The notes under the pieces: generated by a model | Database searches by the model: none | Seen by the model: the letters and a program-made list of their open reading frames with translations, nothing else | Told to the model about the DNA's origin: nothing | Origin: a bacterium | GTDB lineage: Bacteria; Patescibacteriota; CPR2; UBA1875; CAIMLA01 | DNA length: 64,000 nucleotides | NCBI GenBank assembly: GCA_037129835.1 | Contig: JBAXUE010000005.1 | Location: 13,975-77,974 of the forward strand | Reading direction: 5' to 3' | Made by a program: the position numbers and the translations under genes | Shown here: in pieces, positions 45,419-62,832 of the stretch | How the letters are laid out: the number at the start of each line of letters is the position of its first letter | Numbering within the stretch: the first letter of the stretch is position 1

Positions 45419-45428
45419 ATCTCTTTCA

Positions 45429-45455
45429 TATCGTTCGAATGCCAATGAGAACTAT
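45429..45455. repeat. ATCGTTCGAA-TGCCAA-TGAGAACTATA motif copy
   Basis: Same ATYGTTCGAA...GAGAACTA family. Confidence 0.5.
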
Positions 45456-45742
45456 AGATACACTTACTTATTTCCGTTCATTTCTTCTTGATAAGAAACG
45501 AACCAAACCTGCCTGCCGCAGGCGGGGAATCAAGAAAAATCCTCCTACGCACCAGAGCTTCGGACGGACAGGTCGAACTCCTTCTACTCGGCTCGTAATT
45601 TTGTTACCAATAATTACTCGACCTCGTAGATAGTCGGAGCTGTGAGCCCAAAGCGATTTTTCGTTAGGGATATACACTATCAAACCATATTTTCGAAACC
45701 CCCACGATCACCCCCTGGCAGTAAACAGAGGATCTCCTTTTT

Positions 45743-45780
45743 ATTGTTCGAAGTCCGGCGACTGGCGGAAGGAGAACTAA
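45743..45780. repeat. repeat unit R3 (partial): ATTGTTCGAAGTCCGGCGACTGGCGGAAGGAGAACTAA
   Basis: Third copy of the R1/R2 5' module. Confidence 0.55.
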
Positions 45781-45900
45781 TTCCCCACCTTTTCCCTTTC
45801 AGACAAGCTGTAAAAAGTAGATATATTATTAAAGGGAGTTTGCAATATCGACAAAAAATTTGCAACAATGGTAAACCTTGTAAAATGCGATGTTTTGTAC

Positions 45901-45929
45901 TTGATTAAGCTTCAAAAAGTATATAAAAT
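45901..45929 (+). promoter_or_regulatory. candidate promoter TTGATT-N17-TAAAAT for the giant gene
   Basis: Same -10 hexamer and spacing as the pyrG promoter. Confidence 0.4.
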
Positions 45930-45942
45930 GTATATATAACTT

Positions 45943-48900
45943 GTGAGGGTAATGAAACCTAGAAAAGCTCAATTCAGAGATGAACGAAAACGAGCTATGG
46001 TCAGACCTTCTGTGTTTGCTTATTTTAGTGTACGTAAAATATTACAAAAGGTTAAAAATTGGGCTTCGGAGAGCTATTTTGTGAGGTTATTCAGAACTTA
46101 TCGGTTATCCCCAGTGATGTTTGGAAAATCTAGGTCTCATAGGCAATTTAAGCCTCAAAAGGTGAGAATATCTATTATGAAGCGAATCCGTTTGTTTTAT
46201 TTTGAGTTATTATATCTACCACACCTCTTTGCTAGAAAACCGCACGACACTGCCTATAAGAATATTAAAATATATAAAAAATACATGGATCATCCTGCTT
46301 CGGGTCCGATAAACCGTTCTGTTGTGGCTGGGTTCTTGGCTTCGACCCTGATATTTTTGACACTTCAATATGTAATGCCAAATGTATTTAATCTTTTTAC
46401 CCCCAATAGGGTAGAGGCATCATCAACGCCGATAACTTGGACCAGTAATGCCGATTTCAATACAAATGCAGTGACCACTGGGACAGCCACCACTATATCC
46501 TCAACTAACGCGACCCCGAACATTATTGTGAGCAATAATCAAATGAAATTGAATACTGGCGCTGGGGTACCCATAGTCCAAACAAGTACATTTACAGTAC
46601 CGGCACTTGTAACAAGTATTAGTGTAAATATCTCCGGCGGCGGCGGCGGAGGTGGTGGTGGGGGTTATAGTTCTCGTCTTAGACAATATTCTGGTACTGC
46701 TGGAACTGCAGGTACTTTTTCAAGTATTAATGTCGGAGGGATGACATTTACTGCAAATGGTGGTAGTGGTGGTGGTGGTGGTTCCCCAAATACAACTACG
46801 CCTGGAGCAAACGGGGCTAGCGGTAGCACTCCTTTCAGCGGATATCCATCGCTAAGTGGGATTCCTGGCGGCGGTGCTGTCGGTGGAGCAGGTGGATCAG
46901 CATATGCCGCCATGTATATCGCTAGTGCTGGCGGAAGTGGCGGTGCTGGGGGAGTAATAACTGGCACAATTTCAGTTACGCCTGGTCAAGTCGTAACATT
47001 AGTTACTGGGATAGCGGGTCAAGGCGGCACAAGCCAGTCTTATTCTGGCTCTGGCTCTAGCGGCGGGGCTGGTTTATCTCAGGTAACTTACATATTGCCA
47101 TATAGACCAAGCGGCAATATTTCTGGACTAAAAGTAGATGCTGGTAATGGTGTGAACTATAACTGGGAAAGCATCAATTGGAAATCACAATCCTTGCCCG
47201 CAGATACTTCTATCTCTTTTCAAGTCAGAACTAGTGATAATAATGCAAACTGGTCGGCTTGGGGTGGTCCCTTTACCCAAACTGTGGCTGGTAGTATCTC
47301 TGGAACGGGCAGTATTTCTAGTATGGCGATGTCTCGATATTTAGAAATATATATAATCTTAAATTCACCATTGCAATACTCAACGCCCATCCTTGACGAA
47401 TTTACAATAAACCACAATTCTGTCGAGGCGCCCCTGAATAATGCGACGACACTTTCAAGGATAAATAATGTAAGGTTAAAAAAGTCGACAGGTGGCGAGT
47501 TACCCGCAGGTTCACCAGGAGGAACTACGAGTGAGACCGGCATAAAAGTCACTACAACTGGTCTAAGCTGTGTCGGATGTGCAGTCTCTTATAATCCTTT
47601 TGTCGAAGTGGAATACAAACCAGTCGGGACGGCATTTGACGGCGCTACCAATCTCTTTACGGGTACGGCTGATGGTACTAATACATCTGTGGCAACCATA
47701 AGTGGCCTTCCTACGAGCACTAGCTATCATCTGCAGATGAGGGCTAGAGATGCTCAGGGCAGGGCTTCTAATTGGGTACCATATGGCACGGCTCCAGAAA
47801 ATATTAATGAAGCAGATTTTATTATCGATCATGTTTCTCCTATAGGTTCGATTACTGGTTGGAAATCTAAAACTAATGTAGCAAATGTCTTGTATGGAGA
47901 TAAATACTACGCATCATCGCGAGATATTAAGATTGCTTTTACCGCAACAGATGCCGGTGGCTCGAATCTATCACATGTTCAATTTTCTAATGACGGTAAT
48001 AGCTGGGGGAGTGTAGCTTTGGCAAATGGGGTTGATGGGTTACCAAACACGATTGATGATGTATATACTTTTGTTTCTGACGGAACTAGTCCGATCACGG
48101 GTGCTTATTATGCTGGAGATATTCCTTGGCAGCTTACAGCAAATGACGGTCAAAAGTTAGTCTATTATAGAGTGGTTGATAATGCGAATAATCAAACACC
48201 TTCGTATGTTTGGAGTGTACAACAAGATTTCAACGGTATAACGCAAGGGACACTGGCTACGCTGAATAATATTGATCTCGTTACAAATCCAGACTCAATC
48301 GGAATCTCTACTTTATCGACACCGATCGTTCAAACTTATAGTACGCCTGGTGATTATAGTTTTGCTGTACCTGCTGATGTCGTGACGATGTCTGTTGAGG
48401 TTATCGGTGCTGGAGGCGGAGGTGATACACCAACTACTGGTGGTGCCGGGGGTCCATCGACATTGAGCATAAATGGAAATCCTTCATATTATGTGACTTC
48501 AAATGGTGGTGCAGGCGGTGGAGTAGTGGGAGGGACTTCGGTCGGTGGGTTTGCGGGGCTTACAGCTATAGATGGTCAAGGCGGTGCTGGTGGTGCTACT
48601 GGAACTGAATCAACATTTGTTCCAGCGGGCCCAGACTATGATGATTGTGACCCCCCTAATATAATAGGTTGGCATGATGCGCATTGGGACACTGTTTACT
48701 ATTCAAATGGCGGTGCGGGGGGTAAAGTAACAGGGAATATAACTCCAGTTACAGTGGCGGGGCAAACCTTATCTATAAATGTTGGTGCAGGTGGTGTGGG
48801 GGCAACCGATAGTGCTCCGGATAGTACAAACGCCGGTAATGGTGATAACGGGAGTATTAAAATTACTTATACTACACCTAGCGCTTTTCTGAAAGGAACT

Positions 48901-51900
48901 ATAGGAAATACCGGTGTCGGATTGCGAGTCGGTGATGAGACGAACGGGGTAAAACAAACATGGTCTAGCATGAACTGGTCAGCGACAGGCTTGAGTGCTC
49001 TAAATAAAATTGGCGTCAAGGTACGAGCTTCCGATGTATATGGCAGTGGAAGTTACGTAAATCCATCAAATAATACTAATAGTTTTTATTATTTAAGCTC
49101 TGGAACCTCCGGAGTGATTCCAATATCAGCAAGTATATCTAAGACGAAAACAATTGAAGTTCAGCTAGAGCTCAATGGAGATGGTCTGACCTCGCCGATA
49201 CTAAATGATCTATCTATATCTGCTCTACAGGATCCATCAGCAATCACACTAGAAAGTATTGCACCAACAGGAACGGTAGTCGTAAAGGACGCCACTACTA
49301 GTAGTACTACGTATGCAAAATCCAAAGCTGTTAAGCTTATCATGACTTCTTCGGATGCAGGTTCGGGGGTTAAGGATTTTCAGGTTTCAAATGACGGGAC
49401 TAACTGGGGTACATATACTGATGCAAGTGGAGTAATCTTGGATACAGTAGGAAACTGCACTACTCCAAAAAGTTGGGACGAGACAACCTTAACTTGTTTT
49501 AAGCCTTGGGATTCTTCCTATAGTTCCACGGGCTATACTGCCTGGAGCCTTGGTGGATCAGACGGGCCAAAGACTATTTATGTACGTTACCGAGACAACG
49601 CAGGTAATATTTCTGGTGCGTCAGGATTATATACAACGCCGAATACATACAGCTATACTGTACCGGCAGGTATTACTAGTCTGTATGTGGACATAATGGG
49701 TGGCGGTGGTGGTGGTTCAGCTCCTTACTTTACCTCTGGTTTTGGGGGTGGTCCATCGTCGATAACTGTTGGAGCTAGTACTTATACTGCAGCAGGGGGC
49801 TGTGGTGGTAGTGGTGAGTTTGGACCTGGAACTTGTTCTTCTTTGCCAACAAATAATATTGGATTAACAGTTGTTACTGGCGGCGGCGGTGTTGGTGGAG
49901 CACCAGAGTGTTCTGACGGTTGCGGTGAACCGGGGGCTCCTGGGGATAGAGTCTATGGAAATATCAATGTTACCCCTGGTCAAGTGATAACACTTATAGT
50001 TGGCGCTGGGGGTCTTCCTGGTGGGGGTTATGATGGGGAGCCATTGCCAGGTTCAGCTGGTTCAATTTCTTACAACGTTGGTGCAAAAGCAGATATTGTC
50101 CTTGACACTGCTGGTCCAACAGGAGGCACGATAACCTCCCCTGACGGTTTTATCACCGCTACTTCAAATGCTCTAGTGGTTAACGATGGCACAGATACAG
50201 CTAGCGGAGTTGATACAGCCACAAGGAAAGTCCAACGAAAATCAGCCACACTTTCTGCTGGCGTTTGTGGCAGTTATGGTTCCTTCGCCGATATTACCAC
50301 TACTGGAACTTATCCGAACTTTGTTGATGGGACAATCGCCTCAGATAACTGTTACCAATACCAATATTTGGTTTCTGACAAGGCCGGTCACCAAACTATT
50401 TATACAAGCACTGGTATTGCAAAGGTGGATAATGCCGGTCCTGCGGGTGGTTCTATCTCATATAATAGTGGTTATTTTACCGCTACCTCAATAGCCCTAA
50501 CTGCAAGTGATGGCACAGATACAGCTAGTGGTGTGAATATCGCAAGTAGAATAATGCAAAGAAAATCAGCAACGCTCTCGGCAGGAACATGTGGAGCATA
50601 TGGGTCATTCGCGACCATTACTCCTACCGGGTCTTATCCGAACTTTACAGACACGACGGTTGTAAATGCGAACTGTTACCAATATCAATATCTAGTATCA
50701 GATAATTCTGCCAATAGAAAGACCTACACCACAACAAATGTAGCAAGGGTGGATACGGTCGCTCCCACTACTACGGGTTCTATTACAGCCGGTACGACGG
50801 GAGCTAACGACTGGTACAAAGAAGATAATGTCACATATACTCTCATTCCTGCAGATGTAACTTCGACGGTGGCAACCACTATGTACTGCTTGGACACAAT
50901 CGGCAACTGTAGCCCAACCACAGTATTAACGACACCATTTCATATCACTCTTTCAACGGAGTCAGCGACAAACCATATACGTTACAAATCAACTGATAAT
51001 GCTGGGAATGTACAGACTGTTGTAGATTCCGGAGTTATCAAGCTAGACAAAACGGGACCAAACGGTTCGGTAACAGTAAATAGTGGTGATAAGGCCACCA
51101 ATGATCCTGAATTAAAAGCAAACCTAGCCTTTACTCTCAATGACTCACTTTCTGGTGTTGAGAAATATCAGATAGATAATAATGATAATGCTTGGCTACC
51201 ATCCACTCCTGTTGATATATCTACTTCGGGTGCTTCTATGTCTGGTACTTACCCAAATTGGCAGCTAGCACCTGCTGGTGATGGTAGAAAAGTAGTAAGA
51301 ATAAAACTTACCGACCTCGCTGGTAATGAGGTAACTAATATAACCAATTGGATTGCTTATGATACGACACCGCCAAGTTCTGTAAACACGATAGTTGTAA
51401 AAAACGGAGATAATCTTTCACAAACACTAGAAGCAAATGGACACTCGCAGGGATGGTATACATATAATAAACCACAGTTCAACTTTGGCGCCGTCGATGA
51501 TGAATCGGGTATCAAGGAATTTAAATATTGTTTCTACCGAGCTGCAGATGAGAACTGCGACTATAGTGTTAACACGCCAATACCAGCGATAGAAGAAGGG
51601 GAGACAAGTACCTATAAAGCAAACTATATGCCGACTCTTACGGACTTAAGACAAGGTGCTTTAACCTTTAAGGTAAAGGGTGTCGACTATGTCGGCCTCG
51701 AGTCTCCTGTTGCAACATATATCTATAAATATGATGTGACCTTACCAGGTAGGGTATCTGGTTTTTCCGCTTCGAAGGGAACAGAAGAAACAACAGTAAA
51801 GCTTACTTGGAATGTGGCAAATATTGATACTGGATACCAGGCGCCTATAGAACAATACAAGATTGAGAGACTGCTTGCATCCGAATATACCAGCGGACTC

Positions 51901-54900
51901 GGTGTAGACGGTAATTGGGCAGAAACAATAAACGGTACGAAAATGTATCCAAGTTATTATTCTATAGTCTTGGATACTGTAACTGATTCGGCTAAGATTC
52001 CAAAAATAGATAATATCTATAACTATCGTGACGAAACTATGGAAAATTCTACTAAATATATCTATCGTATCTCTGCAAAAGATTTTTCTAATACTACTCC
52101 TAACGATGGCTTTGGACCACCGCCTGTCAACGAGCCAGCGTTTGAGACTTATGGTTATACAAAGGATAGTAAGACTCCAGAGATAATGCCTTCCGGCGTG
52201 ACGGCGGATGTATGTGATGGGGCCAGTCTCTATAATATCGTTTCAAGCCCAACAGGTAATTGTACTGATCTCTCTAAGAGGGCCAAAGAGGTTAAGGTGT
52301 CTTGGTCGGGAGCTTCTGACAAAGGCTCGGGAATTGATTATTATGAAATCTATCGTCGAGAAGGCTATAGTAGCATGGATTTAACAGGTTGGACAGTGGT
52401 GGGGACATCCCCCGAAACAAATGATAGTCTTATTGTTAGACGAGTATTTTTTGATGAGACTGTGCTTGATGCTAAAAAATATTCATATCGTATTGTGGCT
52501 TATGATAATGCAAGGCCCATTCCTGCGAATAGTACAGATCTTATTTTGAATAATGACGAAACTGACGTCACGAATGCTACTATTATTCCAGCAGAAGTTC
52601 CCGACATCACCGCACCAATTGTGCCAGACGCATTTGGTATTTTACCGCTAGGTATTGATTATAATAATCCCGCAAAAGACGCAAACGGCGACCCCTTTCA
52701 GAAAGTAATGATCAGTTGGAAACAAACAACTGACAACTATGCAAACACCAGCATAACTTATGACCTTTACTTTAAGAACGTGGCCTCTGAGGAACCTTTT
52801 GAACAAATACATACCGAATCGTCGGAGCCTTACGACCCAGCTGTTATCCCTCCTGCCACGGAACCACCAACTAAATTATCGTTCTCTTATAGTCAGACAG
52901 GTCTAGAAGGATTAACATCGTATTATTATCAACTAAAGGTTACTGACTCGGACGGAAACACCGCCACTAGTAGTACTAAAGTAATAACTACGGGAAACAG
53001 CGCTGCACCAACACCTCCAACAGAAGTCGAAGTTAGAAATGATGTCAATTCTTTAACCAATGCGAGTACTCAGCTTGCAGTTTCATATCGAGGAAGCTGG
53101 TCTAGAAAGTGTAACTCAGTTACAAAGGCAAACTGTATTATCGGATACGAGGCATACCAAACAACCAGTAATATTTCTCCAGATATCGACGGCAGTCAGA
53201 CAGTAACTGATTCTGACAACTGTAGTTTGACTGAAACGCCAGATGATTGTTGGATAAGAATCAATAGTGCTACTCTTGTTAATAATCAAACACTAAACCC
53301 AATAGAAGATGAGAGATATACAAGCAAGAGAAGCTTTGTTGCAAATAATCTGATCTCGGCAACCAGGTATTATTATAGAGTTCGAGCAATCGATAATAGT
53401 ACAGATGTCGTCGGTGGATTGAAGTCAGCTTTTTCAACAACATTCGAAGAAACAAAACATAAAACAAATGACCTTCCGGATTCTGGCTGGGATATAACAA
53501 GGGACCTTACTCCTCCTCCACTTCCAATAGATGGTCTAGAAGTTAAGGTACGTGATACCCATCCAAATTCTACTTTGCTGAGAAACTTAATTAGTTGGAA
53601 AATACTAAGTGAAAAACCCTTAAGAAAGAAACTTCCTTATGAAACAGCTTATAACGCTACGACGAATCCAAAGGGCTGTAAAATAGTGGTTGTGAGCGGT
53701 GTAGACTACTGTAACGACTTTTATAGTTATGAAGTATATCGAGAAGTAGTGGACTCTAATGATAAAGTGATTTACGAAACTTCTACCCCGATAAAGACAG
53801 AGATTAACCCTGAGACGAATTTCTATATCGATGAGATTGGCAACACAGATCTTATCGGTGGTACGGGCAACAGCTCATTACTTATCGACGCCAAAATAAG
53901 ATACTATGTCAAAGTCGTAGATAGTTCTACTCATAATTTCAACTATCCAGATGGCTCTAGTATTAATGCGCTTCCAAATAAAACCGAGAGGCAAAATTCT
54001 GCCTATACTATTATTCCAGCCAAAGCGATACCTGCCGTTATCGGCAGTGTAAGCTTAACTGATGTTAGCGTTACGACAGCTGTTGTTGGTTGGGCTACGG
54101 ATCAAGATACAGATTCCCTCGTTCAATATAGAGTCAAAGGAAGCACCGGGGATTGGGTAACTGTAGGCCAAGTTGAGAGAAGTTCTTCACATTCCGTGAG
54201 ACTTATCGGAATGCTCCCAAATACGGCATATGAGTACAAGCTAGTTTCTAGAAATTATCTCGATAACAGAGCTTTGTATGTTGAATCTTCTGTTCCTGAT
54301 CTGGCAACTACTGGCTTCAATATTACACCGGGTACTGTAACAACCACTACTTCTACAACTGAAGTTAAATGGACTACTAATCTAGACGCTTCATCGGCCT
54401 TTGTCGAGTATCAACTTCAAAAACAACCAGGTGATGACCCTCAGGGAGGTACTGCTGGCGTAGAACCGGCGGCTCTTGCTGCAAGTCCTGCAAATCATAA
54501 GGTAATCATCAAGGGTCTACGTTCATCCAGGACTTATACCTACAAGATTAAATCTATATCCAAAGATGGTTATCTCGCCGAACATCCTGCCGGTGAATTC
54601 GCAACATTCAAGACCAGGTCTTTCGATTCGGCCCAGTTTACTCTCTCTCCTTCATCTTCAAATGTTGCAGAAAGAAATATTACAGCTACCACAGCCCAGA
54701 TAGTTTGGCAGACAGAGAATCCCACTACCTCATGGGTGGATTACTCTACTACCTCAGGTGTTTACGATGGTGCGGCGGGTAATAATGATTTAGTAAGTTC
54801 TCATGTTGTAGTAATAGATGGTCTTATTCCAGGTACGAAGTATTTCTACAGGGTTCGGGTAAAAGATGTCAATGAAGTAGAATATACGTCTCAGGAGTAT

Positions 54901-55611
54901 TCTTTCACCGCTATTCTTAAGCCAAAGATTGCTAATATGTCAGTTAGAGACATTACCCCATACTCAGTTACTATTTCTTGGGAGACAAATGTTGATACCG
55001 AAACGATTCTTAACTGGGGTACAACGGCTGCTTATGGCGAAAAGAGGGGTATTACGGGAGAGTCCAAGGCCCATCAGATAAAGGTAGATAATCTCTTAGA
55101 CAATCAAGAATATCACTATCAGATTGTAGCGAAAGATGAGACTGGTAATGAAGTTGTTGATATTGACAAGATAGTTAGAACGCCGCTAGATACCGATGGG
55201 CCCAAGATTACAAATGCCAAGGTTGATATCCTTCCAATGGGCGAGAGCGACAGTACATCCTCTATTATCGTTTCCTGGCAGACAAATAAACCTGCCTCTA
55301 CACAAGTTAAATATGGGGAAGGAATGCTTGGAGGAGAGTATGCGAATGAGTCTGTAGAAGACCCATCTCTTAACAATTCTCATACGGTTATCATCAAGGG
55401 CCTTAGACCTGCATCGACTTATCATTACAAGATGATATCTAAGGATAAGCGTGCTAATGTAACAGAATCCCAGGATTATACGTTTGTTACCCCAACCAAA
55501 GAAAAATCTATTCTTCAACTTATTCTTAAATCACTAGAAGACACCTTTGCTTGGACAGGAAAACTCAACCAGTTCTTTGGTAAGCTGGGCAATAGGTTTA
55601 TGGGACGGTAA
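45943..55611 (+). CDS. giant (about 3,200 aa) extracellular/cell-surface protein with signal-anchor, Gly-rich beta-repeat modules, tandem internal repeats and multiple FN3-like domains
   Basis: Uninterrupted 9.67-kb ORF. Hydrophobic anchor VVAGFLASTLIFLTLQYV near the N-terminus. Poly-Gly runs. Repeated ~120-aa units (ASDGTDTASGV...NCYQYQYLVSD twice). Many FN3-type Tyr-corner motifs (YYYRVRAIDN, YEYKLVSRN, YFYRVRVKD, YHYQIVAKD, YHYKMISKD). Exact start uncertain (GTG 45943, ATG 45952 or ATG about 46177). Confidence 0.8.
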   Translation: MRVMKPRKAQFRDERKRAMVRPSVFAYFSVRKILQKVKNWASESYFVRLFRTYRLSPVMFGKSRSHRQFKPQKVRISIMKRIRLFYFELLYLPHLFARKPHDTAYKNIKIYKKYMDHPASGPINRSVVAGFLASTLIFLTLQYVMPNVFNLFTPNRVEASSTPITWTSNADFNTNAVTTGTATTISSTNATPNIIVSNNQMKLNTGAGVPIVQTSTFTVPALVTSISVNISGGGGGGGGGGYSSRLRQYSGTAGTAGTFSSINVGGMTFTANGGSGGGGGSPNTTTPGANGASGSTPFSGYPSLSGIPGGGAVGGAGGSAYAAMYIASAGGSGGAGGVITGTISVTPGQVVTLVTGIAGQGGTSQSYSGSGSSGGAGLSQVTYILPYRPSGNISGLKVDAGNGVNYNWESINWKSQSLPADTSISFQVRTSDNNANWSAWGGPFTQTVAGSISGTGSISSMAMSRYLEIYIILNSPLQYSTPILDEFTINHNSVEAPLNNATTLSRINNVRLKKSTGGELPAGSPGGTTSETGIKVTTTGLSCVGCAVSYNPFVEVEYKPVGTAFDGATNLFTGTADGTNTSVATISGLPTSTSYHLQMRARDAQGRASNWVPYGTAPENINEADFIIDHVSPIGSITGWKSKTNVANVLYGDKYYASSRDIKIAFTATDAGGSNLSHVQFSNDGNSWGSVALANGVDGLPNTIDDVYTFVSDGTSPITGAYYAGDIPWQLTANDGQKLVYYRVVDNANNQTPSYVWSVQQDFNGITQGTLATLNNIDLVTNPDSIGISTLSTPIVQTYSTPGDYSFAVPADVVTMSVEVIGAGGGGDTPTTGGAGGPSTLSINGNPSYYVTSNGGAGGGVVGGTSVGGFAGLTAIDGQGGAGGATGTESTFVPAGPDYDDCDPPNIIGWHDAHWDTVYYSNGGAGGKVTGNITPVTVAGQTLSINVGAGGVGATDSAPDSTNAGNGDNGSIKITYTTPSAFLKGTIGNTGVGLRVGDETNGVKQTWSSMNWSATGLSALNKIGVKVRASDVYGSGSYVNPSNNTNSFYYLSSGTSGVIPISASISKTKTIEVQLELNGDGLTSPILNDLSISALQDPSAITLESIAPTGTVVVKDATTSSTTYAKSKAVKLIMTSSDAGSGVKDFQVSNDGTNWGTYTDASGVILDTVGNCTTPKSWDETTLTCFKPWDSSYSSTGYTAWSLGGSDGPKTIYVRYRDNAGNISGASGLYTTPNTYSYTVPAGITSLYVDIMGGGGGGSAPYFTSGFGGGPSSITVGASTYTAAGGCGGSGEFGPGTCSSLPTNNIGLTVVTGGGGVGGAPECSDGCGEPGAPGDRVYGNINVTPGQVITLIVGAGGLPGGGYDGEPLPGSAGSISYNVGAKADIVLDTAGPTGGTITSPDGFITATSNALVVNDGTDTASGVDTATRKVQRKSATLSAGVCGSYGSFADITTTGTYPNFVDGTIASDNCYQYQYLVSDKAGHQTIYTSTGIAKVDNAGPAGGSISYNSGYFTATSIALTASDGTDTASGVNIASRIMQRKSATLSAGTCGAYGSFATITPTGSYPNFTDTTVVNANCYQYQYLVSDNSANRKTYTTTNVARVDTVAPTTTGSITAGTTGANDWYKEDNVTYTLIPADVTSTVATTMYCLDTIGNCSPTTVLTTPFHITLSTESATNHIRYKSTDNAGNVQTVVDSGVIKLDKTGPNGSVTVNSGDKATNDPELKANLAFTLNDSLSGVEKYQIDNNDNAWLPSTPVDISTSGASMSGTYPNWQLAPAGDGRKVVRIKLTDLAGNEVTNITNWIAYDTTPPSSVNTIVVKNGDNLSQTLEANGHSQGWYTYNKPQFNFGAVDDESGIKEFKYCFYRAADENCDYSVNTPIPAIEEGETSTYKANYMPTLTDLRQGALTFKVKGVDYVGLESPVATYIYKYDVTLPGRVSGFSASKGTEETTVKLTWNVANIDTGYQAPIEQYKIERLLASEYTSGLGVDGNWAETINGTKMYPSYYSIVLDTVTDSAKIPKIDNIYNYRDETMENSTKYIYRISAKDFSNTTPNDGFGPPPVNEPAFETYGYTKDSKTPEIMPSGVTADVCDGASLYNIVSSPTGNCTDLSKRAKEVKVSWSGASDKGSGIDYYEIYRREGYSSMDLTGWTVVGTSPETNDSLIVRRVFFDETVLDAKKYSYRIVAYDNARPIPANSTDLILNNDETDVTNATIIPAEVPDITAPIVPDAFGILPLGIDYNNPAKDANGDPFQKVMISWKQTTDNYANTSITYDLYFKNVASEEPFEQIHTESSEPYDPAVIPPATEPPTKLSFSYSQTGLEGLTSYYYQLKVTDSDGNTATSSTKVITTGNSAAPTPPTEVEVRNDVNSLTNASTQLAVSYRGSWSRKCNSVTKANCIIGYEAYQTTSNISPDIDGSQTVTDSDNCSLTETPDDCWIRINSATLVNNQTLNPIEDERYTSKRSFVANNLISATRYYYRVRAIDNSTDVVGGLKSAFSTTFEETKHKTNDLPDSGWDITRDLTPPPLPIDGLEVKVRDTHPNSTLLRNLISWKILSEKPLRKKLPYETAYNATTNPKGCKIVVVSGVDYCNDFYSYEVYREVVDSNDKVIYETSTPIKTEINPETNFYIDEIGNTDLIGGTGNSSLLIDAKIRYYVKVVDSSTHNFNYPDGSSINALPNKTERQNSAYTIIPAKAIPAVIGSVSLTDVSVTTAVVGWATDQDTDSLVQYRVKGSTGDWVTVGQVERSSSHSVRLIGMLPNTAYEYKLVSRNYLDNRALYVESSVPDLATTGFNITPGTVTTTTSTTEVKWTTNLDASSAFVEYQLQKQPGDDPQGGTAGVEPAALAASPANHKVIIKGLRSSRTYTYKIKSISKDGYLAEHPAGEFATFKTRSFDSAQFTLSPSSSNVAERNITATTAQIVWQTENPTTSWVDYSTTSGVYDGAAGNNDLVSSHVVVIDGLIPGTKYFYRVRVKDVNEVEYTSQEYSFTAILKPKIANMSVRDITPYSVTISWETNVDTETILNWGTTAAYGEKRGITGESKAHQIKVDNLLDNQEYHYQIVAKDETGNEVVDIDKIVRTPLDTDGPKITNAKVDILPMGESDSTSSIIVSWQTNKPASTQVKYGEGMLGGEYANESVEDPSLNNSHTVIIKGLRPASTYHYKMISKDKRANVTESQDYTFVTPTKEKSILQLILKSLEDTFAWTGKLNQFFGKLGNRFMGR

Positions 55612-55666
55612 TATTATTGTATCGTTTGGAATATAGTTCATAATATAGAGTAAGCTAGGAGGAATA

Positions 55667-56104
55667 ATGCTACAAAATACACAAAATACACAAAACATAC
55701 AACCTCAAACTGTAGAAAATATACCGGAGGGAGCTGTCGAATTACCTCAAGTCCAGGTGGAACAAGCCATACCGGCCGTAGAAAGTACTGTCGTATCAGA
55801 GCAGCTACCTACAAATATTGTGAGTAATAATACAGTGCAACAAGCTAATGATGCTGTTGTTGCCCAAGCGACCGTTACGGCGGTGGCTGCCGTTTCTGAT
55901 ACACCAAGAGCACTACCTCCGGTAAAAATTAAAGATGATACCATAGAGCTAAAAGGTGATGATATATATCTCAGAGAGGTGAAAAGAGTTATTAAAGAAG
56001 ATGCTGAAAACCCAGAAAAGCAAGAAGAAGATGCTGAAACAATTCAGGTCGATTATATGGCAAATCATTTTGGGGTTAAAATGAAGAGAGAGGAAGATGA
56101 GTAA
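55667..56104 (+). CDS. hypothetical Q/T/V-rich protein
   Basis: ATG 6 nt after AGGAGG. Stop abuts the next start. Confidence 0.5.
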   Translation: MLQNTQNTQNIQPQTVENIPEGAVELPQVQVEQAIPAVESTVVSEQLPTNIVSNNTVQQANDAVVAQATVTAVAAVSDTPRALPPVKIKDDTIELKGDDIYLREVKRVIKEDAENPEKQEEDAETIQVDYMANHFGVKMKREEDE

Positions 56105-58585
56105 TTGTTAGTTGATATACTTCTTCTTTTATTGATTGGGACAATTGCTGTTACTGTTATAATAGTTTCTTTTGTAGTATTTAGACGTTCTAGATATTGG
56201 AAAAAACAGATGGAGCGTTCGTTGAAAATAGTCCCTTTGCTTATTTCAATTCCGCGTGATTCTGGTTCAAAAGACTATGAGGCGAAACAACGCGACGATA
56301 GAGAAGCAATGCACGAGGTGATATCGGTTGCCGAGAACTTCTATGCTAATATCACTACTTTATATGATAAATATAAGATTGTATCAAACTTTATGGTTGG
56401 AGCGCCACATATTACTTTAGAAATCGTAGCTAAAGAGCATGAGATATTCTTTTATATAGCGGTTCCTTATCCATATTTGGATATGGTGGAAAAAGCTATA
56501 AGTTCACAATATCCGGATTCATATATTGAAAGAGCTGCAGAACATAATATATTTAATAAAGATTGGGGAATCGATAAGGTATACGGGGGGGAAATACGCT
56601 CGACGAATAGTTTTTATTATCCCATCAGAACTTATCAGGAGCTAGACTCGGAGCCTCTAGAAAGTATTACAAACGCCATGAGTAAGCTAGAAAAAGATGA
56701 GGGCGCTTGTTTGCAAATTCTATTTCGTCCAGTAAGCCCTAGTATTACAAAAAAGGTTTCAAATATTTCAAGGAAAATGCAGTATGGTAAAAAAACAAAT
56801 TTTATTGATGAAATATTGAATGCAACTCTTTATAAAACGTCGCAGGAAGTGGCAGCAAAAGAGAAACCAGAGCTAACGCCAATGGAAGAAGAGGGGGTAA
56901 AAGCTATAGAAAAATGGGCCTCAAAACATATTTTTGAAGCTCAAATACGTGTTATCGCCTCATCATCTTCGTCAAGTAGATCTAAAGAAATTGTCACAAA
57001 TATTTATTCTACTTTCCATCAGTTTACCAACCAGAGTTTTAATGGTTTTACTTTCGTTCCGGCAAGAAACATAGAAGAACTTGCAACCGACTATATCTTT
57101 CGGTTTTTTGTTCACAGAATAGTCAGCTGGAATACGCAATTTCGGTTTTTCCGAGGTGCTAATGTCTGTTTGAACACCGAAGAGCTAGCATCCATCTATC
57201 ATCTACCAAACTTTTTAGTTAGAACGCCTGGAATAAGGTGGCTAGCTTCAAAAAAATCAGAACCACCAACGTTTATTTCACCCGATGGAGTTATAATCGG
57301 TCGCAGCAATTTTAGGGGAGAAGAGAAAGTCATTAGAATTTCTGAAAATGACAGAAGACGCCATGTTTACATATTAGGGCAGACCGGTACTGGCAAAACC
57401 ACATCTATGATTAACATGATTTTGTCTGACATTAAAGAAGGTAAGGGAGTTTGTTATATTGACCCACATGGTCAAGATCTTGTAGAACATATTTTGCCAT
57501 ATATTCCTAAAGAAAGAGCAGACGATGTTATTGTGTTTGCAGCTGCCGACACCGAAAGGCCGATAGGTATCAACCTTTTTACTGCGAAAACTCAGGAACA
57601 AAAAGACTATGTAATTCAAGAGTTGATAGGGATGTTTTACCGACTCTACGACCCTGGTCATCAAGGTATAGTAGGCCCTCGTTTTGAACATTGGTTTCGC
57701 AATGCAGCACTTACGTTAATGGCAGGTCCAACGCCTGGAACTTTTATAGAGGTGCCGAGAATATTTACAGATGATGAATTTTTAGCCGATAAACTTCAAT
57801 ATGTTACTGACCCGGTGGTAAGAAGCTTTTTTTTGAAGGAAATGGCAGAAACAAGTGACTATCATAAATCTGAAATGCTAGGTTGGTTTGTAGGTAAATG
57901 GAGTGCATTTATGACGAATATGACAATGAGAAATATTATAGGTCAAACAGAGTCAGCTTTTGATATTCGTCAGATTATGGATGACCAAAAGATTCTTCTT
58001 ATTAATCTTGCAAAAGGTCAGGTCGGTGAAGAAAATATGAAACTTTTGGGAATGATGCTAATTGCCAAAATTCAGATGTCGGCAATGTCGCGAGTTGATA
58101 TGCCAGAAGATCAAAGAAAAGATTTCTATCTATATGTGGATGAATTTCAAAATTTCGCAACAGATTCCTTTAGTTCGATACTGTCTGAGGCAAGAAAGTT
58201 CCGACTTTGTTTGACGGTTGGTAATCAGTTTATTGGCCAATTAACAGACGATATTAAGGAAGCCGTTTTTGGTAATGTCGGTTCACTAATGTGTTTTCGT
58301 ATCGGTAACGATGATGCCGAATATATGGCACATCAATTCGAGCCAGTTTTTAATGAACAAGATCTGATTAATTTGGAAAACTACAATAGCGTTACTAAAA
58401 TTTTAGCCAATAGTACCCCCACTAGACCGTTTAGTATGCAAGGCTATAATTACCCACCCGGAGCTAGCAAAGAGATTGGCGATGCTATAATTCAGTTATC
58501 GCGCTTGAAATATGGGCGTCCACGCGATATAGTAGATATAGAAATCCAAGAAAGAATGAGCATTCGAGAATCAGGAGGGAAATGA
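56105..58585 (+). CDS. membrane-anchored P-loop ATPase of the FtsK-HerA superfamily, VirB4/TraC-like (type IV secretion-type) architecture
   Basis: N-terminal TM, ~400-aa N-domain, then HVYILGQTGTGKTT (Walker A) followed by CYIDPHGQD, and FYLYVDEFQNF (Walker B) about 215 aa later. The spacing and position (Walker A near residue 430 of 826) resemble VirB4. Confidence 0.55.
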   Translation: MLVDILLLLLIGTIAVTVIIVSFVVFRRSRYWKKQMERSLKIVPLLISIPRDSGSKDYEAKQRDDREAMHEVISVAENFYANITTLYDKYKIVSNFMVGAPHITLEIVAKEHEIFFYIAVPYPYLDMVEKAISSQYPDSYIERAAEHNIFNKDWGIDKVYGGEIRSTNSFYYPIRTYQELDSEPLESITNAMSKLEKDEGACLQILFRPVSPSITKKVSNISRKMQYGKKTNFIDEILNATLYKTSQEVAAKEKPELTPMEEEGVKAIEKWASKHIFEAQIRVIASSSSSSRSKEIVTNIYSTFHQFTNQSFNGFTFVPARNIEELATDYIFRFFVHRIVSWNTQFRFFRGANVCLNTEELASIYHLPNFLVRTPGIRWLASKKSEPPTFISPDGVIIGRSNFRGEEKVIRISENDRRRHVYILGQTGTGKTTSMINMILSDIKEGKGVCYIDPHGQDLVEHILPYIPKERADDVIVFAAADTERPIGINLFTAKTQEQKDYVIQELIGMFYRLYDPGHQGIVGPRFEHWFRNAALTLMAGPTPGTFIEVPRIFTDDEFLADKLQYVTDPVVRSFFLKEMAETSDYHKSEMLGWFVGKWSAFMTNMTMRNIIGQTESAFDIRQIMDDQKILLINLAKGQVGEENMKLLGMMLIAKIQMSAMSRVDMPEDQRKDFYLYVDEFQNFATDSFSSILSEARKFRLCLTVGNQFIGQLTDDIKEAVFGNVGSLMCFRIGNDDAEYMAHQFEPVFNEQDLINLENYNSVTKILANSTPTRPFSMQGYNYPPGASKEIGDAIIQLSRLKYGRPRDIVDIEIQERMSIRESGGK

Positions 58586-60585
58586 CAAAGGAAGAAGCTA
58601 AATACCGAAAATCGCAGCAGTTATATCTAGACGCGGGGCGCAGATATACTGATTTGTTATTAAGGGTCTCGAAAAGCAATAGAAAATTATTACAGATTGC
58701 TACAGAAATTAAATCAATCGGTGATAATATCCATGTTTTTGATAGTCCTGTAATTACAAAAGCTTATAATGAAATTATCTCAAATTCACGAATATCGCCT
58801 GAATATCATGGTCTTGTAAAAGAGTTGGAAAAAGTAAAATCTGACCTCGATATTGCGAATTATCAACTTGTGAAAGACCGATTAAAATATTTTTTAGCAA
58901 AGTCCGGCGTTCCTTATACGCAAAATAATTATTCTCCAGAAAAACTTTTTTCTGTTGTTAATAATCCTAATTCTGGATTTCTTGAGAAGTTATCAGTCGC
59001 GGCTCCATATGTAGAGGATGAGATATCTAGGTTTGTTGACTTTATAGATAGCAAAGAAATTCAGATTAAAAATGGCAAAATATCGGCAGCTACTCGAGAC
59101 GCAAAAAATTATCTTCGTAATTTGGAATTAACCTTAATGACGCGGGTAAATAACTCTTTTATATCTGAGAAGAAGATCGATATTAAGGATTTGTATTCTG
59201 AAAAGTTGAATAACGGGCAAAAAGATTTATTTATAGATATGGCCACAGTAGGTGATCAGGAACATATCAGAGAGCTCGAAAGACGGCTATTATCTGGAGA
59301 TGTTACTATTGAAAAAGATCAGATATCACCATTAACGACCAAGGGGAAGCGTTACCTTGATTTACTGGATGAAGAATTTACAAGTCTTTTAGAAAAAAAG
59401 CTGGAAGAAAAACTGATAAATAATAATAATTTATCAAGAAGTGGCAACAAAGTTTTGAACGATATATCCCGTTTAGTAGATGAAAAAGAAGAAATAAATC
59501 TTAAGCATAAAAATTTCAGTAAACGTATTCCGCATGCAAAAGCGTATAGAATGCTTTCACAAAAATATGATAATGACTTAAATGGGATCAAGCTAGATAA
59601 GCAGAACATCCTAAACCAGATAGACGCAATATCTTTATCGGCCATCTCAATTAAAAAGAAACTGTTACTAACGACAACGAGACAGGATGTGTCTATAAAG
59701 GATTCTATATTGCTTGCTTCAGCTTTAGCTTATCTCGGGATTTATGAAAACCAATTATCACATGATGTTTCTGTGTTGGCGGGTAAGCTTGACATAGACG
59801 GTGATTTTGAATCAGATAGATTCAAAGATATTAAGTTTGAAAAGTCAGAAAAAAGCTTTGATTCTCTGTTTGATTCTACCTTGAGTAAAGAGCTAAAGAA
59901 AAAAACAGCTTTTCAAAAAAATCTTGATTTAGTTATACATGAATATGTTTATACTTCTAAGGAATATAAAGACTTTGAAGCTCTTTGTAGCAAGCAAAAT
60001 TTATTGAAAATGAAATTAGCCGATATCGCCATAAATCAGGACTCTTTATATTCAAACTTCTCCCTTTCCGAGAGCCTTTTAGTAGAAATAATTGAGCTTG
60101 AAACAAAGAAAAAGTTACTTGTTACAGAATTACTGCACCAAGCGGACTTGGCACATAAAAAGATTTGGCTCGATAAAATTAAAAAAGATAATAACACATA
60201 TATTGATACGAACTTCGATGGGCATAACATTTTATCGAAAGATTATGCAAGAAAAATCAATGAACAGTTATTTGAAAGATTTGAACTGGAAATAAAAAAA
60301 GTTGCCGAAAAACATCATAAATTACAGCAAAAACACCCGGATGAATTTTATGATTATCTCAAAAAATCTTCACAGCGAGTTAAGAACGGTGAGGATGTCT
60401 CTAAAGTATCAAAGGATATGCTCAATTCATGGAATTGCTATAACGATGATTATGTCATGCTATTAGACGAGATCAATACTGACATGAAAAGGTTAGAAAG
60501 TTACCTGGGTACGTTTGGTGAAAAGTCGCGAAAAGAGATTGAAAAAAATCTAATTTTAGATATTCGCAAAAGAGTAAGAATGTAA
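58582..60585 (+). CDS. hypothetical K/E-rich coiled-coil protein (667 aa)
   Basis: Start overlaps the ATPase stop (ATGA). No TM, no enzymatic motifs. Confidence 0.55.
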   Translation: MTKEEAKYRKSQQLYLDAGRRYTDLLLRVSKSNRKLLQIATEIKSIGDNIHVFDSPVITKAYNEIISNSRISPEYHGLVKELEKVKSDLDIANYQLVKDRLKYFLAKSGVPYTQNNYSPEKLFSVVNNPNSGFLEKLSVAAPYVEDEISRFVDFIDSKEIQIKNGKISAATRDAKNYLRNLELTLMTRVNNSFISEKKIDIKDLYSEKLNNGQKDLFIDMATVGDQEHIRELERRLLSGDVTIEKDQISPLTTKGKRYLDLLDEEFTSLLEKKLEEKLINNNNLSRSGNKVLNDISRLVDEKEEINLKHKNFSKRIPHAKAYRMLSQKYDNDLNGIKLDKQNILNQIDAISLSAISIKKKLLLTTTRQDVSIKDSILLASALAYLGIYENQLSHDVSVLAGKLDIDGDFESDRFKDIKFEKSEKSFDSLFDSTLSKELKKKTAFQKNLDLVIHEYVYTSKEYKDFEALCSKQNLLKMKLADIAINQDSLYSNFSLSESLLVEIIELETKKKLLVTELLHQADLAHKKIWLDKIKKDNNTYIDTNFDGHNILSKDYARKINEQLFERFELEIKKVAEKHHKLQQKHPDEFYDYLKKSSQRVKNGEDVSKVSKDMLNSWNCYNDDYVMLLDEINTDMKRLESYLGTFGEKSRKEIEKNLILDIRKRVRM

Positions 60586-62810: not shown

Positions 62811-62832
62811 AGAAGATTATCGCTTCCTTTCT

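What the first reader, a model, noticed from the sequence alone, without database searches (positions are those of the whole stretch)
45901..60585. Operon of a 3,222-aa giant surface protein, a small Q/T-rich protein, a membrane-anchored VirB4/FtsK-HerA-type ATPase and a 667-aa coiled-coil protein
Seen in sequence: four co-directional ORFs with no intergenic terminators. The second and third abut (TAA then TTG) and the third and fourth overlap (ATGA), so they are probably co-transcribed from the TTGATT-N17-TAAAAT promoter at 45901. The first product is a giant extracellular protein (signal-anchor, poly-Gly beta-repeat modules, internal 120-aa tandem repeats, about ten FN3-like domains). The third has one TM helix, a 400-aa N-domain, then Walker A GQTGTGKTT followed by IDPHGQD, and Walker B LYVDEFQNF 215 aa later. 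That is the VirB4/TraC/HerA layout of type IV secretion and conjugation ATPases. No VirB6, VirD4, VirB11, relaxase or pilin genes are visible in the window, and gyrB/gyrA follow immediately. Inference: a minimal ATPase-driven apparatus coupled to a giant adhesin-like protein. It could export or display the giant protein, act in DNA uptake, or be a remnant of an integrative element. Such an arrangement is not a described canonical T4SS.
Basis: partly seen in the sequence, partly recalled or inferred. Interest (0 to 1): 0.8.

Follow-up and report, generated by a model that had tools for sequence, protein, structure and literature searches.

The report
Patescibacterial T4SS-type coupling ATPase pair
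The ATPase is a chromosomal, phylum-wide member of the type IV secretion "coupling protein" family with a VirB4-like front half. It always travels with a small partner gene, and both are essential in a cultivated relative. The giant surface-protein gene next to it is only a recent neighbour.

Summary
The four ORFs, their junctions and the ATPase motifs are real. The four-gene "apparatus" is not conserved.

**What is conserved.** Only the small gene (55667-56104) and the ATPase gene (56105-58585) stay together. 57 of 70 informative Patescibacteria loci carry such a small co-directional ORF directly upstream.

**What is not.**
- The giant gene is missing from the same syntenic slot (RmuC-PheS-PheT-YkuD-small-ATPase-...-gyrB-gyrA) in all four close relatives examined.
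- The 667-aa protein belongs to a tiny family of 7 clusters among 1.84 billion representatives.

**What the ATPase is.**
- Its C-terminal half passes the Pfam thresholds of both T4SS coupling-protein families (TrwB_AAD_bind, T4SS-DNA_transf). No VirB4 model passes.
- The same unit occupies the coupling-protein position next to a separate true VirB4. It is fused on a Bacillus conjugative plasmid and split into two genes on haloarchaeal plasmids.

**Experimental link.** By synteny, the Southlakia epibionticum orthologues (SEML1_0141/0142) are both scored essential in published Tn-seq data and are not discussed in the paper's main text.

**Reading.** Most likely this is the unlinked coupling ATPase of the patescibacterial T4SS, or an exapted derivative. 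It is a new variant of a known kind.

The parts
55667..56104 (+). Small partner gene (145 aa). The protein is acidic and cytoplasmic, with no hydrophobic segment. Its N-terminal part is disordered. Its C-terminal part (about aa 88-140, nt 55928-56086) carries a conserved helical motif of the type DLIEKEWVxKAKxIV..DDPY....DYxKKRY.
   Evidence: - ORF and ribosome-binding site.
- A local jackhmmer search links it to the ORF directly upstream of the ATPase in 26 Saccharibacteria-type loci.
- A profile search finds at least 4,028 protein clusters, none with a Pfam domain.
- Reverse look-ups from two such proteins both land directly upstream of a DUF8128 ATPase.
- The orthologue by synteny, SEML1_0141, is scored GD/ES/ES in Tn-seq.
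56105..58585 (+). ATPase gene (826 aa, TTG start directly after the small gene's stop codon). Layout: membrane anchor, then a VirB4-N-domain-like DUF8128 domain, then a coupling-protein-type P-loop domain.
   Evidence: More than 4,850 homologues were found.
56108..56185 (+). N-terminal transmembrane helix (aa 2-27), followed by the basic stretch RRSRYWKK. By the positive-inside rule the rest of the protein is cytoplasmic (inference).
   Evidence: Hydropathy and the model's helix 2-27. The public gene call (P0001, 791 aa) starts at M36 and drops this helix, whereas homologues of 817-820 aa cover it.
56210..57289 (+). DUF8128 domain (aa 36-395), which has a VirB4/TrwK N-terminal-domain-like fold.
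   Evidence: - Precomputed PF26449 hit on the identical protein.
- AF2 model of the domain alone: pLDDT 84, pTM 0.84.
- Foldseek: the top 14 hits are all TrwK/VirB4 chains, E about 1e-6.
- Homologous to a stand-alone 391-aa ORF directly upstream of the coupling-protein gene on haloarchaeal plasmids (E 6e-18).
57290..58564 (+). P-loop NTPase domain of the coupling-protein type (aa 396-820). Motifs: Walker A at nt 57377-57403, DPHG at 57458-57478, Walker B at 58130-58156.
   Evidence: - Pfam: TrwB_AAD_bind 37.5 bits (cut-off 20.5); T4SS-DNA_transf 24.1 bits (cut-off 20.1).
- Family profile against PDB sequences: DotL 1e-6, TrwB 3e-6, HerA 2e-3.
- Motif positions.
57593..57940 (+). Seven-helix insertion (aa 497-612) inside the P-loop domain. 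It sits where the all-alpha domain of TrwB-type coupling proteins sits.
58582..60585 (+). Clade-specific 667-aa all-helical cytoplasmic protein. Its start overlaps the ATPase stop codon (ATGA). It evolves very fast.
   Evidence: - Only 7 clusters among 1.84 billion representatives.
- 30% identical in L084, where the ATPases are 69% identical.
- The downstream proteins of L085 and L003 also overlap the ATPase stop but show no detectable homology.
- L086 has adenylosuccinate lyase at this position instead.
45943..55611 (+). Giant secreted or surface protein gene. It is adjacent to the conserved module but not part of it, and is a lineage-specific insertion between the YkuD gene and the small gene. 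The true start is probably M116 (nt 46288), which gives a Sec-type signal peptide ending in VEA|SS (inference).
   Evidence: Domains and repeats. Absent at this position in L003, L084, L085 and L086.
44776..45785 (+). Three direct copies of a 48-93 nt repeat in the 1.25-kb non-coding spacer upstream of the giant gene. In relatives this spacer is only about 50-200 nt long.
   Evidence: 0 matches expected by chance. No Rfam match.

Best explanation
**What it is.** The conserved unit is a two-gene module: a small acidic partner (145 aa) and an 826-aa membrane-anchored ATPase. The ATPase belongs to the type IV secretion coupling-protein lineage (VirD4/TrwB/TraD-like P-loop domain with a helical insertion). 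Between its single membrane anchor and the motor domain it carries a cytoplasmic domain (DUF8128) with the fold of the VirB4 N-terminal domain.

**How it most likely works (inferred).**
1. The protein assembles as a ring at the cytoplasmic face of the membrane.
2. It uses the VirB4-like N-domain to dock onto the membrane parts of the patescibacterial T4SS. That system is of the monoderm MPF-FATA type and is encoded elsewhere in the genome.
3. It uses ATP to recruit and feed substrates, protein or nucleic acid, into or out of that channel.
4. The small partner acts as an adaptor or regulator through its conserved C-terminal helices.

**What is shown.** Family placement, the fold of both halves, the conserved gene pairing, vertical inheritance in a housekeeping neighbourhood, and essentiality of the syntenic orthologue pair in S. 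epibionticum.

**What is inferred.** Ring assembly, docking to the T4SS, the nature of the substrate, and the role of the small partner.

**The other two genes.** The giant surface-protein gene is an unrelated recent insertion. The 667-aa helical protein is a fast-evolving, clade-specific add-on, possibly a substrate or accessory factor.
For: **Family placement**
- Both Pfam coupling-protein families score above their cut-offs, and no VirB4 model does.
- The best NCBIfam hits are TraD/VirD4-type coupling proteins.
- The family profile hits DotL and TrwB first among solved structures.
- The N-domain matches VirB4/TrwK only.

**Relatives on mobile elements occupy the coupling-protein position beside a separate true VirB4**
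- B. subtilis plasmid NRS6116_2 has a fused 913-aa protein, 23% identical over aa 97-754 (E 2e-35). It is followed directly by a relaxase-family gene and by TcpD/TcpE/TcpF genes.
- Haloarchaeal plasmids carry VirB6-like, VirB4-like, stand-alone DUF8128 and coupling-protein genes in a row.
- This agrees with the published MPF-FATA ancestry of the patescibacterial VirB4 (PMC12102498).

**Conserved pairing**
- 57 of 70 loci have a small co-directional ORF ending within 130 nt upstream.
- The small proteins of 26 Saccharibacteria-type loci are homologous to the window's.
- The reverse look-up from the small protein family lands on the ATPase.

**Vertical inheritance**
- The same housekeeping synteny is kept.
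- The NJ tree follows class taxonomy, and the paralogue group is separate.

**Essentiality**
- SEML1_0142 is scored ES/ES/ES and SEML1_0141 GD/ES/ES. The T4SS cluster SEML1_0006-0019 is also essential and was said to lack a recognisable coupling protein.
Against: - No T4SS component lies within 64 kb here, or within +/-10 kb in the relatives.
- Published counts give VirD4-type homologues in 2,918 genomes but VirB4 in only 2,417 of 3,035, and only 148 t4cp genes lie near virB4 (PMC12102498). Some genomes may therefore have this ATPase without a T4SS.
- SEML1_0142 is called essential already at T0, like the replication genes. Most T4SS genes are called GD at T0. The two phenotypes need not share a cause.
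- Linkage to gyrB-gyrA is conserved across two classes and is unexplained by a secretion role.
- Scores against the curated TraD/VirD4 equivalog models are far below their cut-offs (43 against 366 bits).
- Orthology to SEML1_0142 rests on synteny, length and annotation. I could not align its sequence.
Confidence: 0.5

Rival explanations
1. Exapted, T4SS-independent translocase. The pair descends from a conjugative coupling protein but now works alone at the membrane in an essential housekeeping process. Candidates are handling of DNA or RNA (uptake of host nucleic acids, or a chromosome-related task linked to gyrase) or export of a different cargo.
For: - It is never linked to virB4. It is linked to gyrB-gyrA in the window clade and in Saccharibacteria.
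- T4CP homologues are more widespread than VirB4: 2,918 against 2,417 genomes. The authors themselves raise exaptation.
- SEML1_0142 is essential from T0, like gyrB and primase.
- Having its own VirB4-like N-domain plus a membrane anchor could make it self-sufficient.
Against: - S. epibionticum keeps a canonical essential FtsK with 4TM, alpha, motor and gamma domains (SEML1_0096). The ATPase is therefore not a replacement for FtsK.
- No channel-forming partner is encoded next to it. The small partner has no membrane segment.
- All characterised relatives of this motor type act with a T4SS.
- Gene linkage to gyrase may be neutral synteny.
Confidence: 0.3
2. One reading: a minimal four-gene apparatus in which the ATPase exports, displays or serves the giant adhesin-like protein.
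For: The four genes are co-directional and tightly spaced, with ribosome-binding sites and no terminator-like sites between them.
Against: - The giant gene is absent from the same slot in four close relatives.
- It is absent from all 80 distant loci. Only 2 of them hold any other ORF of at least 1,500 aa within +/-10 kb, and not adjacent to the pair.
- The giant protein has a Sec-type signal/anchor.
- A 1.25-kb repeat-bearing spacer marks the giant gene as an insertion.
- The 667-aa gene is confined to a tiny clade.
Confidence: 0.04
3. A decayed remnant of an integrative conjugative element or plasmid that has left an orphan transfer ATPase behind.
For: The closest relatives outside the phylum are on conjugative plasmids. 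No other transfer genes are nearby.
Against: - The gene is full length, with invariant catalytic motifs across 71 diverse homologues.
- The housekeeping synteny is conserved across classes.
- The tree follows taxonomy.
- The syntenic orthologue is a core, Patescibacteria-enriched, essential gene.
- There is no integrase, relaxase or tRNA gene in the window.
Confidence: 0.03
4. A divergent true VirB4, meaning a second assembly or energising ATPase of the T4SS rather than a coupling protein.
Against: - There is no hit to CagE_TrbE_VirB, AAA_10, TIGR00929 or TraC. VirB4_plasma scores 17.7 bits against a cut-off of 590.
- No VirB4 sequence appears in the profile-against-PDB list.
- On plasmids, this unit coexists with a separate bona fide VirB4 and sits beside the relaxase.
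Confidence: 0.1

Closest known systems
Type IV coupling proteins (VirD4 / TrwB of R388 / TraD / DotL; Pfam TrwB_AAD_bind PF10412 and T4SS-DNA_transf PF02534)
   Same: - Membrane-anchored P-loop ATPase of the FtsK-HerA superfamily.
- Walker A followed by a DPxG motif, Walker B DE, and a helical insertion in the motor domain.
- Both Pfam families score above their cut-offs.
   Different: - One transmembrane helix instead of the usual two.
- A 360-aa VirB4-like cytoplasmic domain lies between the anchor and the motor.
- Chromosomal, vertically inherited and unlinked to any T4SS or relaxase gene.
- Paired with a small soluble partner.
- Scores far below the curated TraD/VirD4 equivalog cut-offs.
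VirB4 / TrwK (R388) / TraC / TcpF
   Same: The overall N-domain plus RecA-like C-domain architecture and a length of about 800 aa. The N-domain fold matches TrwK uniquely.
   Different: No VirB4 sequence model matches. A true VirB4 is present in addition in the related plasmid systems, and elsewhere in patescibacterial genomes according to PMC12102498. The upstream partner is soluble, not a VirB3-like membrane protein.
DUF8128-type coupling ATPase of Bacillus subtilis plasmid NRS6116_2 (WP_144625398.1, annotated as a DUF87 protein) and the split pair on haloarchaeal plasmids (e.g. Halomontanus rarus WP_317175933.1 + WP_317175934.1)
   Same: The same two-domain unit, alignable over both halves. 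The motif at the end of the N-domain is shared (L-x-x-E-E-L-A/S-x-I/V-x-H/R-x-P).
   Different: - These are plasmid-borne, inside conjugation clusters with VirB4, VirB6/Tcp genes and a relaxase.
- They share only 23-26% identity with the window protein.
- The haloarchaeal version is split into two genes.
- No counterpart of the small acidic partner was noted.
SEML1_0141 / SEML1_0142 of Southlakia epibionticum ML1 (Wang et al. 2023, Table S1)
   Same: The same gene order (small ORF, ATPase..., gyrB, gyrA) as my Saccharibacteria loci, which form the sister group of the window clade. Both genes are essential.
   Different: - The ATPase is about 190 aa longer at the C-terminus, with a TraG-D_C-type match.
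- Two minus-strand genes (DUF5353, DUF11) lie before gyrB.
- There is no 667-aa partner and no giant gene.
- The sequence itself was not available to me.
HerA (DUF87) helicase/translocases
   Different: The N-domain is VirB4-like, not a HAS-barrel. There is no NurA, Sir2 or other HerA partner nearby. The protein is membrane-anchored.

Membership tests
Type IV coupling protein (VirD4/TrwB/TraD) | Motor domain matches the family's sequence models | tested here: met
   - TrwB_AAD_bind scores 34.5-37.5 bits (cut-off 20.5) and T4SS-DNA_transf 24.1 bits (cut-off 20.1).
- The family profile hits DotL at 1e-6 and TrwB at 3e-6.
- The NCBIfam equivalog cut-offs are not reached: SXT_TraD scores 43 bits against 366.
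Type IV coupling protein (VirD4/TrwB/TraD) | N-terminal membrane anchor | tested here: met
   One hydrophobic helix (aa 2-27) followed by a basic stretch. Classical members have two helices.
Type all-alpha domain check: Type IV coupling protein (VirD4/TrwB/TraD) | All-alpha domain inserted in the nucleotide-binding domain | tested here: inconclusive
Type IV coupling protein (VirD4/TrwB/TraD) | Encoded with, or functionally tied to, a T4SS and/or a relaxase | tested here: not met
   There is no T4SS or relaxase gene in the 64-kb window or in the +/-10 kb flanks of the relatives. The feature is met for the plasmid homologues. A T4SS elsewhere in this genome could not be checked.
Type IV coupling protein (VirD4/TrwB/TraD) | Hexameric ring that recruits substrates to the channel | not testable with these tools
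   This needs biochemistry or structure determination of the complex.
VirB4 (CagE_TrbE_VirB / TraC / TcpF) | VirB4-type N-terminal domain | tested here: met
VirB4 (CagE_TrbE_VirB / TraC / TcpF) | Sequence match to VirB4 family models | tested here: not met
   No CagE_TrbE_VirB, AAA_10, TIGR00929 or TraC hit. VirB4_plasma scores 17.7 bits against a cut-off of 590.
VirB4 (CagE_TrbE_VirB / TraC / TcpF) | Sole VirB4-type ATPase of its T4SS, next to VirB3 | tested here: not met
   In the related plasmid systems a separate true VirB4 is present. The upstream partner here has no membrane segment.
Pfam DUF8128 (PF26449) | Match to the family model over the N-terminal half | tested here: met
   A precomputed hit is on record for the identical protein P0001 and for nearly all 120 listed homologues. 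The model is not in the local Pfam copy, so I could not re-score it.
HerA / DUF87 | DUF87 motor plus HAS-barrel N-domain and a nuclease or effector partner | tested here: not met
   DUF87 scores 25.2 bits against 23.2, which is marginal. The N-domain is VirB4-like. No NurA or Sir2-type neighbour is present.
FtsK/SpoIIIE | FtsK_SpoIIIE motor, 4TM N-domain, gamma domain | tested here: not met
   FtsK_SpoIIIE scores 15.8-16.8 bits against a cut-off of 24. There is no gamma domain. A canonical FtsK exists separately in S. epibionticum.

The most novel reading that the evidence does not exclude
The small-partner plus DUF8128 ATPase pair is the missing, essential coupling module of the patescibacterial T4SS. 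It would be a living intermediate between VirB4 and VirD4: it keeps the VirB4 docking domain but has a coupling-protein motor. Under this reading the hypervariable gene that is translationally coupled downstream (the 667-aa protein here, and unrelated-looking proteins in sister genomes) encodes cargo delivered to the host cell. That would give the first handle on what this essential secretion system transports.
Probability: 0.25. Interest if true: 0.8.

Novelty: new variant of a known kind. Interest (0 to 1): 0.55.

Why it matters
Patescibacteria make up a large share of uncultivated bacterial diversity. Their T4SS is the first T4SS shown to be essential for its owner's growth, yet its cargo and its coupling ATPase are unknown. 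The Cell 2023 study states that no coupling protein is recognisable. The 2025 survey treats "the" t4cp of S. epibionticum as non-essential.

The evidence here separates two paralogue groups.
- The gyrB-linked group has a VirB4-like N-domain and an obligatory small partner. By synteny it is the essential one (SEML1_0141/0142).
- The sigma-factor-linked paralogue (SEML1_0293) is the dispensable one.

This gives a concrete candidate that can be tested genetically in a tractable organism, either for the energising or substrate-selecting step of the system or for a new exapted function.

It also assigns a fold and an evolutionary origin to Pfam DUF8128. The domain would derive from the coupling unit of monoderm and archaeal conjugation systems, fused on a Bacillus plasmid and split on haloarchaeal plasmids.

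For this window specifically, the result is deflationary. The giant protein and the ATPase are neighbours by accident.

Tried and rejected
- **Sequence models on the N-domain.** Pfam and NCBIfam find nothing for the N-domain, even at E <= 10.
- **AFDB search.** The afdb50 library was unavailable.
- **Literature.** A search for DUF8128 returned no papers.
- **Small upstream ORFs of other classes.** I tried to link those of Microgenomates and Parcubacteria (three further clusters) to the window's small protein by hhalign. Probabilities were below 1%, so only their position and architecture are shared, not demonstrable homology.
- **Downstream proteins of L085 and L003.** I tried to link them to the 667-aa family. 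hhalign probabilities were 1-5%, so no homology can be claimed.
- **FtsK-replacement idea.** Rejected, because S. epibionticum has an essential canonical FtsK.
- **Promoter at 45901.** Not above chance.
- **Non-coding RNA.** Rfam finds nothing in 44000-64000, and no tRNA gene is in the window.
- **Self-BLAST of the giant protein.** It returned nothing usable. The repeats were verified by direct alignment instead.

Full report

- 45943-55611: 3,222 aa
- 55667-56104: 145 aa
- 56105-58585: 826 aa, TTG start
- 58582-60585: 667 aa
- gyrB follows at 60717.

The junctions are as described.
- An AGGAGG ribosome-binding site precedes the small gene.
- The small gene's TAA is followed at once by the TTG of the ATPase gene.
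- The ATPase stop overlaps the next start (ATGA), behind an AGGAGGG site.
- No terminator-like site on the + strand falls in any gap.

The ATPase motifs are present: Walker A at aa 425-433, IDPHGQD at 452-458, and Walker B at 676-684. They are 251 aa apart, not 215. The protein has a single N-terminal hydrophobic helix followed by a basic stretch.

The giant protein has one hydrophobic segment, three Gly-rich modules, a 2 x 108-aa tandem repeat (62% identical) and FN3 / purple-acid-phosphatase-N type domains.

The proposed promoter is a 9/12 match. Such matches are no more frequent than in shuffled sequence, 51 against 46 +/- 7.6.

The rest of the window is housekeeping, all on the + strand, with no T4SS, relaxase or integrase gene and no tRNA. 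It includes CTP synthase, Sua5, RmuC, PheS/PheT, a YkuD L,D-transpeptidase, BipA and DinB.

**2. Which genes belong together?**

The ATPase has more than 4,850 homologues. Those carrying a source name are labelled Patescibacteria.

Four relatives with 56-70% identical ATPases keep the same neighbourhood: RmuC, PheS, PheT, YkuD, small ORF, ATPase..., gyrB, gyrA. None of them has a gene between YkuD and the small ORF. The giant gene is therefore a lineage-specific insertion, together with its 1.25-kb spacer that carries three copies of a 48-93 nt repeat.

In 80 loci from GTDB species representatives the family spans Saccharibacteria, Berkelbacteria, Doudnabacteria, Microgenomates and Parcubacteria.
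- Only 2 of the 80 hold any other ORF of at least 1,500 aa within +/-10 kb, and none adjoins the pair.
- 57 of 70 loci with enough upstream sequence have a co-directional ORF of 60-220 aa ending within 130 nt of the ATPase start. Most gaps are -13 to +30 nt.

The small proteins of 26 Saccharibacteria-type loci are homologous to the window's. They share a disordered N-terminus and a conserved C-terminal helical motif of about 55 aa.
- A profile of them retrieves at least 4,028 protein clusters with no Pfam assignment.
- Two look-ups starting from such proteins land directly upstream of a DUF8128 ATPase followed by gyrB-gyrA.
- In other classes the upstream ORFs form three further clusters. They share the architecture but show no detectable homology.

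The 667-aa protein has only 7 clusters among 1.84 billion representatives.
- It is 30% identical in L084, where the ATPases are 69% identical.
- In L085 and L003 a large helical protein also overlaps the ATPase stop but is not detectably related.
- L086 has adenylosuccinate lyase there.

The conserved module is therefore the small partner plus the ATPase. The 667-aa gene is a fast-evolving, clade-specific addition.

**3. What is the ATPase?**

*Sequence.*
- The C-terminal half exceeds the cut-offs of both Pfam coupling-protein families: TrwB_AAD_bind at 37.5 bits against 20.5, and T4SS-DNA_transf at 24.1 against 20.1.
- It only marginally exceeds the DUF87 cut-off. No VirB4 family model matches.
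- The best NCBIfam hits are TraD/VirD4-type proteins, far below equivalog cut-offs.
- A 71-sequence family profile hits DotL (1e-6) and TrwB (3e-6) first among all PDB sequences, then HerA (2e-3), and no VirB4.

*Structure.*
- It scores almost equally against HerA (22.7) and the VirB4 C-domain (22.7). The fold alone does not discriminate.
- The model has a seven-helix insertion (aa 497-612) where coupling proteins carry their all-alpha domain.
- The N-terminal 360 aa (Pfam DUF8128 by precomputed hits) match nothing by sequence.
- The 14 best Foldseek hits are all TrwK chains, E about 1e-6 and probability 1.0.

The protein is thus a hybrid: membrane anchor, VirB4-type N-domain, and coupling-protein-type motor.

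**4. Relatives outside the phylum**

A tblastn search against plasmids finds the same unit on mobile elements.
- On B. subtilis plasmid NRS6116_2 it is a fused 913-aa "DUF87" protein, alignable over aa 97-754 (E 2e-35). A replication-relaxation family (relaxase) gene follows directly, then TcpD, TcpE and a TcpF-type VirB4.
- On haloarchaeal plasmids it is split. A 391-aa ORF homologous to the N-domain (E 6e-18) directly precedes a 1,026-aa coupling protein. Next to them lie a VirB4-like ATPase and a VirB6/TrbL-like protein.

In both cases a separate true VirB4 is present, so the DUF8128 unit occupies the coupling-protein slot. This fits the published conclusion that the patescibacterial T4SS derives from the monoderm/archaeal MPF-FATA class (PMC12102498).

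**5. Link to experiments**

The published findings are these.
- Quinonero-Coronel et al. 2025 found 5,713 VirD4-type homologues in 2,918 of 3,035 patescibacterial genomes, only 148 of them near virB4. They noted that "the" S. epibionticum t4cp is non-essential.
- Wang et al. 2023 state that the essential T4SS of that organism lacks a recognisable coupling protein.

Table S1 of Wang et al. shows two such genes.
- SEML1_0142 is a 1,019-aa "TraM recognition domain" protein, core and Patescibacteria-enriched. It is scored ES/ES/ES, with 11 of 114 input insertions retained.
- The 139-aa ORF directly upstream, SEML1_0141, is scored GD/ES/ES with 0 of 9 insertions retained.
- Downstream follow a 193-aa and a DUF11 535-aa gene on the minus strand, then gyrB and gyrA. 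This is exactly the order in my Saccharibacteria loci.
- The other gene, SEML1_0293, lies next to a sigma-like gene and is scored NE/NE/NE. It corresponds to the separate paralogue clade seen in L007, L016 and L020.

In an NJ tree the window clade is sister to the gyrB-linked Saccharibacteria group. By synteny and phylogeny, the window pair is therefore orthologous to an essential gene pair that the main text of that paper does not mention. I could not align the SEML1 sequences themselves.

**6. Mechanism**

The best-supported reading is a coupling-type ATPase anchored in the membrane. Its VirB4-like N-domain would dock it to the membrane components of the T4SS encoded elsewhere. The small partner would act as adaptor or regulator. 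I give this a confidence of about 0.5.

The main rival, at about 0.3, is that the pair has been exapted to a T4SS-independent essential task.
- It is never linked to virB4.
- It is more widespread than VirB4.
- It is essential from the first time point.
- It is linked to the gyrase genes in two classes.

An FtsK-replacement role is excluded for S. epibionticum, which has an essential canonical FtsK. The other three readings are poorly supported: the giant-adhesin apparatus, an ICE remnant, and a true second VirB4. The reasons are given above.

**7. Verdict**

- The family is catalogued (Pfam DUF8128; T4CP counts in 2025) but not characterised.
- The VirB4-like N-domain, the obligatory small partner, the plasmid-borne fused and split relatives, and the overlooked essentiality make it a new variant of a known kind. 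It is of moderate to good interest to T4SS and CPR specialists.

Noticed in passing
window 44776-44870, 45323-45417, 45738-45785: Three direct copies (88-94% identical) of a 48-93 nt repeat lie in the unusually long 1.25-kb non-coding spacer between the YkuD gene and the giant gene. The repeat occurs nowhere else in the window and has no Rfam match. It may mark the insertion that brought in the giant gene.
   Followed up: partly
window 56105-56209: The public gene call for the identical protein (P0001, 791 aa) starts at M36 and so omits the N-terminal transmembrane helix. Homologues of 817-820 aa include the helix, which supports the TTG start at 56105.
   Followed up: partly
window 46288 (M116 of the giant ORF): The first 115 codons of the giant ORF are highly basic and precede the only hydrophobic segment. 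Starting at M116 would give a classical Sec signal peptide (MDHPASGPINRSVVAGFLASTLIFLTLQYV...VEA|SS). The annotated 3,219-3,222 aa length may therefore be too long.
   Followed up: no
L016 14470-18551; L020 12817-17193; L007 3587-6163: A second paralogue of the ATPase (858-1,073 aa, with TrwB_AAD_bind and TraG-D_C matches) forms its own clade. In L016 and L020 a 346-aa gene precedes it. In L016 that gene encodes Sigma70_r4 plus HARE-HTH domains (only the L016 copy was scanned). This mirrors the pairing of SEML1_0294 and SEML1_0293 in S. epibionticum, where the sigma-like gene is essential and the ATPase paralogue is not.
   Followed up: partly
L003 5030-7918; L014 and L021 (PheT ORFs of 941-962 aa): In some relatives the PheRS beta subunit is about 150-170 aa longer than here (793 aa). 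In L003 it carries a precomputed NlpC/P60 peptidase domain hit inside PheT. This is an odd fusion, next to the YkuD L,D-transpeptidase gene.
   Followed up: no
L087 16368-17651 (Halomontanus rarus plasmid): On the haloarchaeal plasmid, a protein with an NrS-1 polymerase helix-bundle domain follows the coupling-protein gene directly. This suggests a primase-polymerase is tied to the transfer genes.
   Followed up: no
L004-L028, L058-L076, L089, L090 (Saccharibacteria loci): Saccharibacterial orthologues are 910-1,110 aa long. They carry a C-terminal extension of about 100-280 aa that the window protein (826 aa) lacks. Two minus-strand genes, of about 190 aa and of 430-870 aa (a DUF11/PKD/Y_Y_Y surface protein where scanned), usually sit between the ATPase and gyrB.
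   Followed up: partly
window 60717 vs 60738: The gyrB ORF is listed from a TTG at 60717, but an in-frame ATG at 60738 is seven codons downstream. The public call in L001 is 690 aa against 697 aa, which is consistent with the ATG start.
   Followed up: no
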